From Mytilus edulis (Eukaryota): 64,000 bases of DNA. Made by a program: the position numbers. Position 1 is the stretch's first letter. Every line of letters begins with the position of its first letter. Below, in pieces: positions 3,001-9,000 of this stretch. The DNA is taken from contig NC_092347.1 in NCBI RefSeq assembly GCF_963676685.1, forward strand, positions 73,718,001 to 73,782,000. Direction: 5' to 3'.

Positions 3001-6000
3001 TCCTAAAAGCCTATGTGATTGAATTCTTAATCAGTATTTGTTTTCCTTTCAGTTATTGAATCAATTAGAAGGTTCTGGTCCAGCTCCTGCTGAGAAAAGT
3101 AAAATAGATTCATTACCTTCAATTAAAATAACACCAAAGTTAGTAGGTAAGTTAATTGTATCCTAAAGAATAGGACATATTTACCTAAAAGTCTCCACTT
3201 TTTGTGTTTCTTAGATTTAAGTCACATATCAGCTGAATGCACCTGAAAATCTCTCTGGAGTGTAAGACTTATATTCTGCCCCTACCCAATGTGACTTTAC
3301 CTTTTTACAGAAGTAAAATTTATGTTTTCTTTCTTAGGCCAATTAAAATTAATTGATAGATTTTCATCCCCGCCCGCCCCTCTGAAATGTTCCCGCCCCG
3401 ATTTTTTTTTATTTTTGAAAAAAATTACGATTTCCGGATTTTATTCATTTCCGTTACCGGTAACCGTCGATATTTCGTTTCGTGTAAAACCTCCTGTTTC
3501 AAATTTCGGTTTTCGTATATCTTAGAGTATTCTAACTGAATGATTAAGTCGATATATTCTGCTGATCTATGATGACAACTTCATTACCGATAATAAAGAT
3601 TGATTACGAGAAGGGCGTGAAATATTTAAGTAACGAGTAATACGCTGTGTCCAAGAACGCAAATCGCCGTACACTATACATGACACAAATGATAGATCCG
3701 TGTTTTACTTGCTCGGATACTAATATTAAAAACACATATTTTTGTATCTATTCTATATTTTCAAAACTACATATGTACAGTTATCCTACAAATCTACAAC
3801 TCTCAGTTTATGGCTACACGTGCTGATCTTATCTATCAAGTCATGAATATTTATTAGCTATGTAGGCGTGTCAAAATCGTATCATACGCGATAATGACCA
3901 GCCAGTACACTGTAATGATTTCATTAACCAGTATTAAAAAGATAAACATAACACAAATGTTTGTGAGTAAAACACCTTGGATTTATTTTATTTATACAAT
4001 GACTTAGTGTCAAGAAATTTGGACTGTGAAGGAAACCCAAAAGCGTCAGAATCGTGGAACACATTTGACTGGAATAAAGAAATTGACACAAGCATCAACT
4101 TTTTAGATTAATGACCGTATTTTGAGTTAAAAAAATCGACAAACATACGCATTTTTAATTTATTAATTTACAGCAAGCTCTTAGCAATAAATTTAGCCAT
4201 GCCTTTCGTTTTTTGTAAAAAAAACCAAAAAAAACAAACAGCAAACATCCTCTGTCCCAATACCCACGATAGAGTCTTTAAACAACTTTATGTTCTACAT
4301 TGTAATTATATTTGAATCTTGCATATTAAGGACCAACCCTATTATTTCAACACTGTTTGAGTTTTCATTTTATTCTGTACTTATCGTACTCATCTTGCAT
4401 ACCAATGTATTTGCTTCATTTTATTAGGACAACAAAACATAGCTTAGAAAGCAAAATACATTTGATGTAGGTAGTCCAACTGAAGAGAGCATTTCTTCAC
4501 ATTTCTGCTGTTTACTACAAAAATAGGTTTCTAAAGCGGCAAATACATGTAGAACAGTGGTTGCCAATCAGAGATAAATATTTACGAATTTGAAAAAGCA
4601 GCACCAGCATATAGAGTATATGTGTCTCAATATTGATACGTTACTCTAGAGCTAGCTCAAAGTACGCCGCTGATTTTGCTGAACGAGGAATACTGCTTTC
4701 TCAAAAGTTGCTAAGACAGGGCTATGAATCATCAAATTAAGGTCATCACTTAATTTTATGGTTGCCATCATGAGCTGATTGGCCATTATGACAAAAGTGT
4801 GTCAGAAATCATATCTCAGTGATATTCTTCCTCAGTCATAACAATTAACCTTCCATCATTACCGAACTGAACAAAGAAATAACATGACGGGTGCCGTATA
4901 CGGTGAAGGAAATGCTTACCTTTCCGGAGCACCTGATTTCATTCCTGGTTTTTAGTGGAGTTTGTGTTGTTTCCTTAACTTATTATTTGTAACTGTTGAT
5001 GTAAATGTCTTTCGGTTTTAAGAGTCTTTGGTTACTCCTTGGTTTTGATTGTTATGGTCTTATACACAATACCTTATTGATGTATTTATATGATATAAGC
5101 TTATTATTACACTTGCATATATGATTGAATAACACGCGACAAGAAGGTTTCATATGAAATAAAATTTAAAAAATAAAATCCTCCCACCCGCCCCATTTTT
5201 TTCAAAAATTTGGATGAAAATCTACTAATTAATGTTAGTTGGCCTTATCCATCAAACATTTTAGATTCTGCACATTGATGAAGTGAATTTGTTTTGTAAT
5301 TTGTTCCTGAATATGCTTGAAAATGTGTTACTAAGCATCATACAGTCAATCAATCTTAATTTTAGCTTTAAAATTGTTATCTGAATGTGTTAACACTCTA
5401 AACAAATATGGATTTATAGGTACAAGAAGATGTCAAAAGAATAAAAAGAAAAATTTGCTTGTCGTTGTGTTGACCCTGCAACAGGAATTGTCATGAAGTT
5501 TTGAAATCTTGTGGTTACTTTCAGATAAATAGTTGATATAAAATTCCTTTCATTTCAGATAAAGGTGCACATTGTGCTATATGTTTTGAAGATTTTAGTT
5601 TAGATGAAGAAGTAAAACGGTTACCCTGTGATCACTATTATCATAATGACTGTATAGTTAAATGGTTAGAAATGGTAAGTAAAACGGTTACCCTGTGATC
5701 ATTATTATCATAATGACTGTATAGTTAAATGGTTAGAAATGGTAAGTAAAACGGTAACCCTGTGATCACTATTATCATAATGACTGTATAGTTAAATGGT
5801 TAGAAATGGTAAGTAAAACAGTTACCCTGTGATCACTATTATCATAATGACTGTATAGTTAAATGGTTAGAAATGGTAAGTAAAACAGTTACCCTGTGAT
5901 CACTATTATCATAATGATTGTATAGTTAAATGGTTAGAAATGGTAAGTAAAACGGTTACCCTGTGATCACTAATATCATAATGACTGTATAGTTAAATGG

Positions 6001-9000
6001 TTAGAAATGGTAAGTAAAACGGCTACCCTGTGATCACTATTATCATAATGACTGTATAGTTAAATGGTTAGAAATGGTAAGTAAAACGGTTACCCTGTGA
6101 TCACTATTATCATAATGACTGTATAGTTAAATGGTTAGAAATGGTAAGTAAAACGGTTACCCTGTGATCACTATTATCATAATGACTGTATAGTTAAATG
6201 GTTAGAAATGGTAAGTAAAACGGCTACCCTGTGATCACTATTATCATAATGACTGTATAGTTAAATGGTTAGAAATGGTAAGTAAAACGGTTACCCTGTG
6301 ATCACTATTATCATAATGACTGTATAGTTAAATGGTTAGAAATGGTAAGTAAAACGGTTACCCTGTGATCACTATTATCATAATGACTGTATAGTTAAAT
6401 GGTTAGAAATGGTAAGTAAAACGGTTACCCTGTGATCACTATTATCATAATGACTGTATAGTTAAATGGTTAGAAATGGTAAGTAAAACGGTTACCCTGT
6501 GATCACTATTATCATAATGACTGTATAGTTAAATGGTTAGAAATGGTAAGTAAAACGGTAACCCTGTGATCACTATTATCATAATGACTGTATAGTTAAA
6601 TGGTTAGAAATGGTAAGTAAAACGGTTACCCTGTGATCACTATTATCAGAATGACTGTATAGTTAAATGGTTAGAAATGGTAAGTAAAACGGTTACCCTG
6701 TGATCACTATTATCAGAATGACTGTATAGTGAAATGGTTAGAAATGGTAAGTAAAACGGTTACCCTGTGATCACTATTATCATAATGACTGTATAGTGAA
6801 ATGGTTAGAAATGGTAAGTAAAACGGCTACCCTGTGATCACTATTATCATAATGACTGTATAGTTAAATGGTTAGAAATGGTAAGTAAAACGGCAACCCT
6901 GTGATCACTATTATCATAATGACTGTATAGTTAAATGGTTAGAAATGGTAAGTAAAACGGTTACCCTGTGATCACTATTATCATAATGACTGTATAGTTA
7001 AATGGTTAGAAATGGTAAGTAAAACGGTTACCCTGTGATCACTATTATCATAATGATTGTATAGTTAAATGGTTAGAAATGGTAAGTAAAACGGTTACCC
7101 TGTGATCACTATTATCATAATGACTGTATAGTTAAATGGTTAGAAATGGTAAGTAAAACGGTTACCCTGTGATCACTATTATCATAATGACTGTATAGTT
7201 AAATGGTTAGAAATGGTAAGTTTTCTCAAGAAACTATAAAACATTTATTGTAAATTTTGAATTGTTACTTTTAAGCATTTTACCCAAACATGGGGTTCCA
7301 CAAAAAATTTAAGCCAGCCTTACACTTTTTTCCAATTCCTTTCTAATCTTGTGGTTTCTTCAATAAAGACATTTGTACCAAAGAAGGATAATCATAAAAG
7401 TGGATTAAGTGTTAGGAATTGGGTCACAACATCAGAGGGTATTTTGATTGTCATTCTGTTTACTGACTGTTATTCTGGCAGTTAAGTAATATTATATTGA
7501 TAACCTTTAAGATTTGATATTAATTTTCTGCTATTTAGAAGAGAAGGCACTTTTTGTCAAGCCTTCGACTTTAGTCGAAAAAGCGAGACTAAGCGATCCT
7601 TCATTCCGTCGGCCTTGTCTTCGGCGTCCACAAATATTCACTCTGTGGTTAAAGTTTTTGAAATTTTAATAACTTCCTTAAAATATACTGGATTTCTACC
7701 AAACTTGGACTGAAGCTTGTTTATGATCATAGATAGTATCCAGAAGTAAATTTTGTAAAAATAAAATTCCATTTTTTCTGTATTTTACTTATAAATGGAC
7801 TTAGTTTTTTCTGCAGGGAAACATTACATTCACTATGTGGTTAAAGTTTTTAAAATTTTAATAAATTTCTTAAACTATCCTGGGTTTGTACCAAACTTGG
7901 ACAGAAGCTTGTTTAAGGTCATATGATAGTATCCAGAAGTATATTTGGTAAAAAAATGAATCCATTTTTTCCGTATTTTACTTTTAAATGGACATAGATT
8001 TTCTGCCAGGAAACAACACATTCACTCTGTGGTTAAATTTTTTTTAAATTTTAATAGCTTTCAATATACTATTTCAAATTTGTACCAAACTTGGACAGAA
8101 GCTTGCTTATGATCAAAAGTTAGTATCAAGAAGTAAATTTTGTTAATATTTTGTACCTGTGTATCTGTATTTTACTTATAAATGGACTTAGTTTTTTTCT
8201 TCTAGTTAACATTACATAGTCTGCAGTTAAAGTTTTTAAAACATATATTAGATTCATAAACTATCCTGATTTTTTTCCAAACTTGGACAGAAGCTTCTTA
8301 CAATCAAAAGATAGTATCAAGAGAAATATTTTTTTCCTCATTTTTGTTGAGCCTGCGATTTACAGCAAAAGTAGGCGAGACACTGGATTCAGTGGAACCC
8401 TTACAAATTTTTTATTTATCCCAACCACCCATAACAGAAAATTTCATTCTACTTAAAATTCTTACAAGATTCTAAATAAATATGCAACCACAAACAATTT
8501 ATCAAAAGTGCCTCCCCTTTTAGTAAAATAATCGTTTTGAATTTAGCCAATTTTGATATTATTTTGACAAACTAAATTTACTAAAATTTATTATTTTCTA
8601 ACCAGCAAAAATTGTTAGACGACTTGAGAAGGATCAATGTCAGGTACTTGTTTGCCTGTCTGGTTAACATGCTAGTTCATTTTATATACAGAAATTTATT
8701 GAAAAAAAAACAGATTTGTCCAGTTTTGGAAGTCCTAACCAAACAAAAAAATGTTACACTTTTGTCAGATCAGAACAATCATGTCAGCTTGTTTGATGCA
8801 TATACAATTATTAAAGTAGAGTCAATTTCATATTAAGATTCTTAATTACTTATCAATTATTCCTTTGAAGAAGTGTCCCAGCAATACTAAAGAAGTGGTA
8901 ACTAATCTCTTTATTGGAATCTTTCTAACAGCTTTTTCTTCAAAGGGCTGATTTAAATGCCCTTCCATGGGGGCATTATGTTTTTTAGTCTGTGCATCCA

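What the first reader, a model, noticed from the sequence alone, without database searches (positions are those of the whole stretch)
5610..7221. 24 tandem copies of a splice donor inside the RING domain of RNF126/115; only the first is productive
Seen: the last 65 nt of the RING exon plus GT are amplified 24 times, with AAGT microhomology shared between the exon (gaAGTa) and the donor (gtAAGT). Every copy recreates ATG|GTAAGT with the same exonic context; the substitutions I noticed fall elsewhere in the unit. The native intron follows only the last copy. Reading past donor 1 gives VSKTVTL-TGA (stop 5696-5698), removing the final CPVC zinc ligands. Donor 2 (after 5741) leaves the stop 43 nt from the last junction, inside the usual 50-55-nt NMD boundary, so it could yield a RING-dead protein; donors 3-24 predict NMD targets. 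Inference: either strong selection of the exon-proximal donor among identical competitors, or a copy-number-dependent dial on E3 ligase output.
Basis: partly seen in the sequence, partly recalled or inferred. Interest (0 to 1): 0.72.

Follow-up and report, generated by a model that had tools for sequence, protein, structure and literature searches.

The report
Splice donor repeated 24 times in mussel gene
In a mussel ubiquitin-ligase gene, a 67-base repeat has copied the end of one exon and its splice signal 24 times into the following intron, an arrangement already known from several human genes, where the cell normally uses only the first copy.

Summary
Window 5610-7221 holds 24 full copies plus 4 nt of a 67-nt unit (98% matches, no indels). 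The unit is the last 65 nt of a RING exon plus GT, and all 24 copies keep ATG|GTAAGT. The gene is the RNF115/RNF126 orthologue of a Mytilus mussel. Each window exon tested is a 100% match to the public protein 'RNF115_126 [Mytilus edulis]'. Only donor 1 joins the six N-terminal zinc ligands to the CPVC of the last exon. Reading on past donor 1 stops at 5696-5698.

The kind of structure is not new. Minisatellites whose first unit spans an exon-intron boundary are described for human F7, IFI 6-16, CBS, LMNB2 and PDGFA. In those genes only the first donor, or the first two or three, is used (PMC1557585). This is a new member of that kind, in an invertebrate, with an unusually strong donor.

The most likely reading is a young minisatellite of little or no effect, with donor 1 chosen by position. 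The 'copy-number dial' idea is untested.

The public gene model carries a 7-residue insertion. It is explained by a weak in-frame detour through the array and is probably an annotation artefact.

No reads or cDNA could be checked.

The parts
153..206 (+). Exon of the RNF115/126 gene (P0001 residues 146/147-163). Acceptor cag|G, donor ACT|GTAAGT.
   Evidence: tblastn of P0001 gives 100% over residues 147-163; sequence.
1024..1102 (+). Exon encoding NFIPMMHGNPGDYAWGVHGLDNIVTQ. Donor CAG|GTAAAA.
   Evidence: Exact substring of P0001 at residue 164; sequence.
3053..3146 (+). Exon encoding LLNQLEGSGPAPAEKSKIDSLPSIKITPKLV. It ends in phase 1. Donor TAG|GTAAGT.
   Evidence: Exact substring of P0001 at residue 190; sequence.
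5559..5674 (+). RING exon, 116 nt, with the first six zinc ligands (C-x2-C ... C-x-H-x2-H-x2-C). Its last 65 nt are copy 1 of the array.
   Evidence: Pfam zf-RING_2 profile positions 2-35 of 44, E 2.3e-11; exact substring of P0001 at residue 222.
5610..7221 (+). Minisatellite: 24 units of 67 nt plus the 4-nt AAGT microhomology.
5675..5680 (+). Donor 1 (ATG|GTAAGT), the only one of the 24 that gives the conserved ...WLEM|HGTCPVCR junction.
5696..5698 (+). TGA met in frame when donor 1 is read through. The product ends ...WLEMVSKTVTL.
5742..7217 (+). Donors 2 to 24: GT at 5742-5743 and then every 67 nt up to 7216-7217. They are identical to donor 1 from -65 to at least +6. Donor 24 differs from +7 on.
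5679..5680 (+). Weak second GT, 4 nt downstream of donor 1 (TAA|GTAAAA). It is needed for the in-frame detour seen in the public model.
   Evidence: and hand reading of the codons.
7199..7215 (+). Candidate 17-nt micro-exon (tatag|TTAAATGGTTAGAAATG|gtaagt), shown for copy 24. The same segment, with the Ile-compatible TT, exists in 21 of the 23 downstream copies; copies 17 and 18 read TG there.
   Evidence: The acceptor has 10 pyrimidines in its last 20 nt, against 13-15 for the four real acceptors.
10308..10451 (+). Last coding exon: HGTCPVCR..., carrying zinc ligands 7 and 8. Stop TGA at 10449-10451.
   Evidence: Exact substring of P0001 at residue 267; sequence.

Best explanation
A 67-bp segment of a Mytilus RNF115/RNF126 gene was duplicated in tandem between two AAGT tetranucleotides and then expanded to 24 units by slippage or unequal exchange. 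The segment is the last 65 nt of the RING exon plus the intron's GT.

Copy 1 is still the real exon end. Copies 2-24 are intron sequence, carry 23 exact decoys of a strong donor, and evolve without coding constraint.

No sequence difference exists between donor 1 and donors 2-23 within 65 nt upstream or many hundred nt downstream. The choice must therefore be positional. Donor 1 is taken because it closes a normal 116-nt exon with the upstream acceptor (exon definition, or 5'-to-3' 'oriented scanning'), as shown for the human F7 IVS7 minisatellite. At most a small leak to donors 2 and 3 is expected.

The array itself is most likely a neutral or slightly deleterious minisatellite, probably variable in copy number, and not a regulatory device.

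Shown: the anatomy, the frames, the gene's identity, and the lack of constraint on downstream copies. Inferred: the origin by microhomology, which donor is used, and neutrality.
For: Array anatomy and identical donors.

Gene identity. Exon C alone matches zf-RING_2 positions 2-35 of 44. The four window exons tested are exact substrings of P0001 'RNF115_126 [Mytilus edulis]', and the fifth matches it 100% over residues 147-163 by tblastn. P0001 finds 216 relatives, named RNF115, RNF126 or Iruka where a name is given.

The junction ...WLEM|HGTCPVCR is the conserved one. Fifteen of 16 aligned orthologues lack any insertion there. Two of these are unnamed, transcript-sized records 75% and 71% identical to P0001 by BLASTP (77% and 75% in the alignment).

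Downstream copies are unconstrained. Read as exon, copies 3, 6 and 15 carry stop codons, copies 16 and 17 lose a His ligand, and copies 4, 5 and 20 carry other replacements.

Neighbouring copies share variants (4-5, 16-17, 17-18, 19-20) and there are no indels. This fits a real array that grew by local duplication.

Tandem arrays are common here: 11% of the window, in 18 arrays.

Precedent (PMC1557585; Introduction and Discussion read). F7 has 5-9 identical donors and only the most upstream is used. LMNB2 (10-15 units) and PDGFA (16-18 units) use only the authentic donor. IFI 6-16 (25 pseudo-sites) and CBS (15-20 units) use the authentic donor plus the next two.

A 5' splice site at the end of an exon raises U2AF and U2 recruitment to the upstream 3' splice site (PMC8724738, passages).
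Against: No transcript or read data for this locus could be examined, so donor use is inferred from human cases.

The opposite rule exists. [quoted passage not shown] Here that would favour donor 24 and a truncated product.

The donor here is much stronger than F7's UGG/gugggu. It matches MAG|GURAGU at 8 of 9 positions (my count). In F7, pseudo-sites raised to a perfect consensus did shift splicing towards themselves.

The only public gene model does not use the simple donor-1 junction. It carries a 7-residue insertion.

The title of Lievers 2001 links the CBS repeat to reduced enzyme activity. I saw this only in the reference list of PMC1557585. It shows that such arrays are not always without effect.
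Confidence: 0.6

Rival explanations
1. Copy-number-dependent dial. A fixed fraction of splicing events falls on decoy donors, so longer alleles give less productive mRNA. Donor 2 would also give a RING-dead protein that keeps the substrate-binding N-terminus.
For: All decoys are exact copies of a strong donor. Donor 2 leaves the stop 43 nt from the last junction. IFI 6-16 and CBS do use two pseudo-sites. One cited title links CBS repeat number to lower activity (reference list only). Repeat length is associated with splicing at thousands of human loci (PMC10078293, passages).
Against: In the described cases only the first two pseudo-sites are ever used, so output should saturate after about three copies instead of scaling to 24. 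There is no sign of selection on the array: the variant-free zone round the donors has P = 0.19. No expression or population data are available. The 50-55-nt NMD rule is known from mammals only (recalled).
Confidence: 0.12
2. Hypomorphic or null allele. Because the donors are strong, an intron-proximal or random choice prevails, so most transcripts from this haplotype are truncated. The allele is carried because the other haplotype is intact.
For: The in vitro rule for two strong sites favours the intron-proximal one (PMC3413131). Exons defined by donors 4-24 would be 317-1657 nt long, so any intron-definition pairing would hit a decoy 23 times out of 24.
Against: All five exons in the window are intact and identical to the public protein. 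Copy 1 equals the consensus. Natural genes with the same layout splice correctly in cells.
Confidence: 0.12
3. Assembly artefact. The array, or its copy number, was produced by misassembly of a much shorter repeat.
For: Long, 98%-pure arrays are hard to assemble, and no reads could be inspected.
Against: Copies differ by substitutions that adjacent units share, and there is not one indel in 1612 nt. That pattern is not the one expected from read errors or from collapse. The public protein model needs at least two KWLEM-coding segments in its assembly, though that assembly may be the very one the window comes from.
Confidence: 0.1
4. The 7-residue insertion in the public model (VIKWLEM) is a real isoform. 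It would be made by the weak GT at 5679 and a 17-nt micro-exon from a later copy.
For: The path is in frame (4 + 17 = 21 nt) and reproduces P0001 residues 260-266 exactly (and hand reading of the codons).
Against: One of 16 orthologues has it. The donor is weak (TAA|GTAAAA) and overlaps a strong one. The acceptor has 10 of 20 pyrimidines against 13-15 for the real ones. Short junction reads match every copy equally well and would tend to be placed at copy 24, which would force a gene predictor into exactly this detour (inference).
Confidence: 0.05

Closest known systems
Human F7 intron 7 37-bp minisatellite (Borensztajn et al. 2006, PMC1557585)
   Same: The first unit spans the exon-intron boundary, so the authentic donor is followed by identical pseudo-donors. 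Use of a pseudo-donor changes the frame in most cases. Only position distinguishes the sites.
   Different: F7 has 5-9 units of 37 bp, of which only 4 nt are exonic, and a weak donor (UGG/gugggu). Here there are 24 units of 67 bp, 65 nt are exonic, the donor is near-consensus, the host is a mollusc, and the array lies inside a RING domain.
[quoted passage not shown] 1995; seen only as cited in PMC1557585; PMC306954 is not held)
   Same: The number of reiterated donors is about the same (authentic plus 25).
   Different: The authentic site and the two nearest pseudo-sites are all used constitutively there. I could not read the unit length or frame from a held paper.
Human CBS intron 13 31-bp VNTR (Yang 2000 and Lievers 2001; titles and one sentence in PMC1557585)
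   Same: An exon/intron-border repeat of 15-20 units. It is a possible precedent for an effect of copy number on enzyme output.
   Different: Two pseudo-sites are used there. The effect on activity is known to me only from a title.
Human LMNB2 (100 bp x 10-15) and PDGFA (81 bp x 16-18) boundary repeats (as cited in PMC1557585)
   Same: Long units and many copies, with only the authentic donor used.
   Different: The mechanism was never studied, and these are vertebrate genes.
Synthetic pre-mRNAs with two strong 5' splice sites (Hodson et al. 2012, PMC3413131)
   Same: Competition between identical strong donors for one acceptor.
   Different: These are in vitro two-exon substrates with no upstream acceptor. 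The intron-proximal site wins, which is the opposite of what the natural minisatellite genes do.

Membership tests
Minisatellite whose first unit spans an exon-intron boundary (reiterated 5' splice site) | The first repeat unit contains the exon-intron junction | tested here: met
   The unit is 5610-5676, that is 65 exon nt plus GT. The exon is confirmed by Pfam and by exact identity to P0001.
Minisatellite whose first unit spans an exon-intron boundary (reiterated 5' splice site) | The authentic donor sequence is repeated identically in the following intron | tested here: met
   24 of 24 units carry AAATGGTTAGAAATG|GTAAGT.
Minisatellite whose first unit spans an exon-intron boundary (reiterated 5' splice site) | Only the most upstream donor (or the first two or three) is used | not testable with these tools
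   No transcript data for this animal are within reach. A search for short proteins with the read-through peptide found none, which says little.
Minisatellite whose first unit spans an exon-intron boundary (reiterated 5' splice site) | Copy number varies between individuals (VNTR) | not testable with these tools
   Only one haplotype is in hand, and no eukaryotic genome collection is available.
RNF115/RNF126 (BCA2, Iruka) E3 ligases | C-terminal RING-H2 finger | tested here: met
   Exon C matches zf-RING_2 positions 2-35 of 44 (E 2.3e-11), and exon D supplies CPVC. P0001 residues 225-274 match positions 2-44 of 44.
RNF115/RNF126 (BCA2, Iruka) E3 ligases | N-terminal zinc ribbon (PF14369) | tested here: met
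   Present in P0001 residues 13-43. Those exons lie upstream of the window, so this rests on P0001 being the same gene; the window exons match it 100%.
RNF115/RNF126 (BCA2, Iruka) E3 ligases | Conserved central block GNPGDYAWG...GLD.I.TQLLNQLE..G..PA...I..LP, and best hits named RNF115 or RNF126 | tested here: met
   Invariant columns in the 16-sequence alignment. Named hits are RNF115-like, RNF126 or Iruka.
RNF115/RNF126 (BCA2, Iruka) E3 ligases | E3 activity, and BAG6 or ubiquitin binding | not testable with these tools
   These are biochemical properties. RNF126-BAG6 is known to me from abstracts only (PMC4104027, PMC4872217; listing).
Transcripts escaping EJC-dependent NMD (stop less than 50-55 nt from the last junction) | Stop within 50-55 nt of the last exon-exon junction | tested here: met
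   For donor 2 the distance is 43 nt. For donors 3 to 24 it is 110-1517 nt.
Transcripts escaping EJC-dependent NMD (stop less than 50-55 nt from the last junction) | The organism uses the EJC-position rule | not testable with these tools
   Unknown for molluscs. That flies and nematodes do not depend on it is recalled, not checked.

The most novel reading that the evidence does not exclude
The array is a natural 24-way competition between exact copies of a near-consensus donor in a lophotrochozoan. It would act as a tunable sink. Decoy use, mainly at donors 2-3 but rising with copy number through U1 loading of the intron, would divert part of the transcripts into NMD or into a RING-dead, substrate-binding RNF115/126 that antagonises the full-length ligase. 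Alleles of different length would then set different levels of protein quality-control activity.
Probability: 0.08. Interest if true: 0.6.

Novelty: new member of a known kind. Interest (0 to 1): 0.3.

Why it matters
If the array is real and donor 1 is used faithfully, this would be the first case I could find outside vertebrates of position-only choice among many identical donors. None of the 10 listed papers of 34 mentions Mytilus, and only PMC1557585 describes this layout. The donor here is far stronger than in F7. That would set the 'most upstream wins' rule seen in cells directly against the 'intron-proximal wins' rule seen in vitro for strong sites.

There is also a practical lesson for annotation. 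The last 65 nt of the exon are identical in all copies, so short junction reads cannot tell the donors apart. The one public gene model carries a RING insertion that no other orthologue has.

Otherwise this is an ordinary minisatellite in a repeat-rich genome.

Tried and rejected
- Cluster members. 
- Read-through peptide search. A search among proteins of 24-79 residues, aimed at transcript-derived fragments or array ORFs in other read sets, found no candidate. The same query among longer proteins found only P0001.
- Selection on the donors. The variant-free 26-nt run is not significant (P = 0.19). Rejected as evidence.
- RNA structure hiding the decoys. Exon C plus two units folds with z = -1.70, and 10 of 200 shuffles do as well. 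A 5-bp GGUAA/UUACC hairpin is possible at donors 1-23 but not at donor 24. It cannot separate donor 1 from donors 2-23, so it was rejected as a selector.
- Precise in-frame excision of whole units. No unit position has AG directly before GT, so no GT-AG intron of 67n nt exists (hand reading of the unit).
- Unit as part of a dispersed repeat. There is no copy outside the array in the window.
- Rfam. No hit in the window.
- Papers not held. Turri 1995 (PMC306954) and Eperon 2000 (PMC102138).
- Literature searches. One had a syntax error and one exact-phrase search found nothing.
- Not attempted. No structure prediction or complex prediction was run, because neither would change the verdict.
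Full report
**What is there.** Tandem Repeats Finder gives 5610-7221, period 67, 24.1 copies, 98% matches and no indels. It is the highest-scoring, purest and most-copied of the 18 merged arrays in the window. In register there are 24 full units followed by AAGT. The units carry 17 substitutions at 8 unit positions, and 10 of the 24 units equal the consensus, copy 1 among them. 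All 24 units carry AAATGGTTAGAAATG|GTAAGT, and the native intron begins to differ only at +7 of the 24th donor. A 28-nt core of the unit occurs 24 times in the window, always inside the array, and never in 100 shuffles. The window has no N.

**Gene and organism.** I take the contig for a mussel (Mytilus), not human.
- The RING exon alone (5561-5674) matches Pfam zf-RING_2 positions 2-35 of 44 (E 2.3e-11).
- Its read-through peptide finds one longer protein, P0001 'RNF115_126 [Mytilus edulis]', 313 aa.
- The peptides of exons 1025-1102, 3053-3145, 5561-5674 and 10308-10448 are each exact substrings of P0001.
- A fifth exon, 153-206, matches P0001 residues 147-163 at 100%. The earlier exons lie upstream of the window.
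- P0001 itself, a public protein, finds 216 relatives. Those with names are called RNF115, RNF126 or Iruka.
- P0001 has the N-terminal zinc ribbon PF14369 and a complete RING.
- From abstracts only (listing: PMC4104027, PMC4872217), RNF126 works with BAG6 in cytosolic protein quality control.

**What each donor would give.** The RING exon is 5559-5674 (116 nt) and ends in phase 0. The last exon starts at 10308 with HGTCPVCR and stops at 10449-10451. Donor 1 gives ...CIVKWLEM|HGTCPVCR. Fifteen of 16 aligned orthologues, from bivalves to Xenopus and Nematostella, have this junction without any insertion. Because 67 is not a multiple of 3, any later donor adds 67(k-1) nt. The frame then meets TGA at 5696-5698, after VSKTVTL. 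This removes the last two zinc ligands, which correspond to profile positions 36-44. The stop lies 43 nt before the donor-2 junction and 110 to 1517 nt before those of donors 3 to 24.

**The public model and an in-frame detour.** P0001 reads ...KWLEM-VIKWLEM-HGTCPVCR, a 7-residue insertion found in 1 of 16 orthologues. The window explains it.
- A second GT 4 nt after donor 1 (TAA|GTAAAA, 5679) leaves GTA plus one A.
- A 17-nt segment, tatag|TTAAATGGTTAGAAATG|gtaagt, from a later copy supplies TT and then KWLEM.
- Together 4 + 17 = 21 nt, which gives V-I-K-W-L-E-M by hand reading.

So 'only the first is productive' is true of the 24 strong donors but not of every conceivable path. I think the detour is an annotation artefact. 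Its donor is weak and overlaps a strong one. Its acceptor has 10 of 20 pyrimidines against 13-15 for the four real acceptors. Junction reads carrying 65 nt or less of the exon match all copies equally. They would tend to be placed at copy 24, which forces a predictor into such a path (inference).

**History of the array.**
- The repeated segment is flanked by the same 4 nt, AAGT (5610-5613 and 7218-7221), with no further match on either side. This fits a first duplication by slippage or microhomology-mediated repair, followed by expansion.
- Variants are shared by neighbours (4-5, 16-17, 17-18, 19-20), and some recur at a distance (3/15/20; 7/10/19/20; 5/22). That is usual for arrays that grow by local duplication and exchange. 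With no indels, it speaks against an assembly artefact.
- Read as exon, copies 3, 6 and 15 carry stop codons, copies 16 and 17 lose a His ligand, and copies 4, 5 and 20 have other replacements. The downstream copies are therefore not under coding constraint.
- The variant-free 26 nt round the donors is within chance (P = 0.19).
- Tandem arrays of period 10 or more cover 11% of this window. An array touching an exon edge is therefore not surprising in this genome.

**Comparison with what is known.** The layout is a described class. [quoted passage not shown]
- F7 has 5-9 identical donors and only the most upstream one is used.
- Inactivating the upstream sites activates the next one and causes increasing exon skipping.
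- Pseudo-sites strengthened up to a consensus value of 91 do not compete. Only perfect-consensus ones do.
- Its Introduction lists IFI 6-16 (authentic site plus 25 pseudo-sites, the first three used), CBS (15-20 units, two pseudo-sites used), LMNB2 (100 bp x 10-15, authentic only) and PDGFA (81 bp x 16-18, authentic only).
- I saw those primary papers only as citations. Turri 1995 is not held.

**Mechanism proposed.** Donor 1 and donors 2-23 are identical for 65 nt upstream and for hundreds of nt downstream. Nothing local can tell them apart. RNA folding gives no selector either (z = -1.70). All 24 donors are transcribed at least 3090 nt before the acceptor, so simple first-come pairing across the intron cannot choose between them. 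What differs is the distance to the upstream acceptor: 116 nt for donor 1, then 183, 250, 317 and up to 1657 nt. Exon definition fits this picture, since a 5' splice site raises U2AF and U2 recruitment at the upstream 3' splice site (PMC8724738 passages). So does the 'oriented scanning' of PMC1557585. These predict that donor 1 is used, with a possible leak at donors 2-3 only. That exon definition fails above roughly 300 nt is recalled, not checked.

[quoted passage not shown] The mussel donor is strong, matching the consensus at 8 of 9 positions by my count. The outcome is therefore an open question, not a certainty.

- 'Strong selection of the exon-proximal donor' is the known behaviour of this class.
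- The 'dial' is possible but unsupported. In the precedents only the nearest pseudo-sites are used, so 24 copies should act much like 3.
- The NMD boundary quoted is a mammalian rule.

**What stayed unchecked.**
- No reads, transcripts or other mussel genomes were within reach. The one open genome collection holds bacteria and archaea only, and it was not used.
- The members of P0001's cluster could not be listed.
- Supplements of papers were not consulted.
- Whether the public assembly behind P0001 is the same as the window's is unknown, so P0001 is not independent proof of the array.

**Verdict.** This is a new member of a known kind, of modest interest mainly as a natural test of 5' splice-site choice with strong donors and as an annotation trap.

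Noticed in passing
window 153-206 (+): A fifth exon of the same RNF115/126 gene, not mentioned in the finding. The exons for P0001 residues 1-146 lie upstream of the window start.
   Followed up: yes
window 7636-8322: A second tandem array lies in the same intron (192 bp x 3.6, 78% matches). Overall, 11% of the window lies in 18 arrays of period 10 or more.
   Followed up: partly
window 42130-43632 (-) and 48624-50546 (+): Two long open frames of 500 and 640 residues, made almost wholly of Gly/Ser/Leu repeats. Both end with a ...GGSSGKW... motif, and neither has a Pfam match. They may be a pair of related glycine-rich structural proteins.
   Followed up: partly
window 53819-55461 (-): A B-box zinc finger (PF22586, 1.4e-06) is followed by a coiled region and a beta-propeller-like part (weak PF22701 and PF16472 matches). 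This looks like a TRIM-like gene.
   Followed up: partly
window 34429-35790 (-): Two exons encode a ubiquitin-binding domain (PF16455, 1e-26) and a ubiquitin-like domain (PF00240, 1.5e-14), giving a UBTD-like gene.
   Followed up: partly
window 15046-15405 (-), 16224-16583 (-), 27156-27551 (+): Open frames with the recurring motif SKYMFRFSISKNPKNSIF...ILDP lie on arrays of period 126-147. They are probably one dispersed repeat family.
   Followed up: no
window 39033-39749 (-): A 238-residue open frame with no Pfam match at E up to 0.001, of unknown nature.
   Followed up: partly
window 5673-5697 and each later unit junction: Each of donors 1-23 can pair GGUAA with the UUACC at the start of the next unit, forming a 5-bp hairpin. 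Donor 24 cannot, because the native intron follows it. The hairpin is weak, and the fold as a whole is not unusual (z = -1.70).
   Followed up: partly
public protein P0001, residues 260-266: The only public model of this gene carries a 7-residue duplication inside the RING. It traces to the array, and it is likely an annotation artefact worth flagging to users of that gene set.
   Followed up: yes
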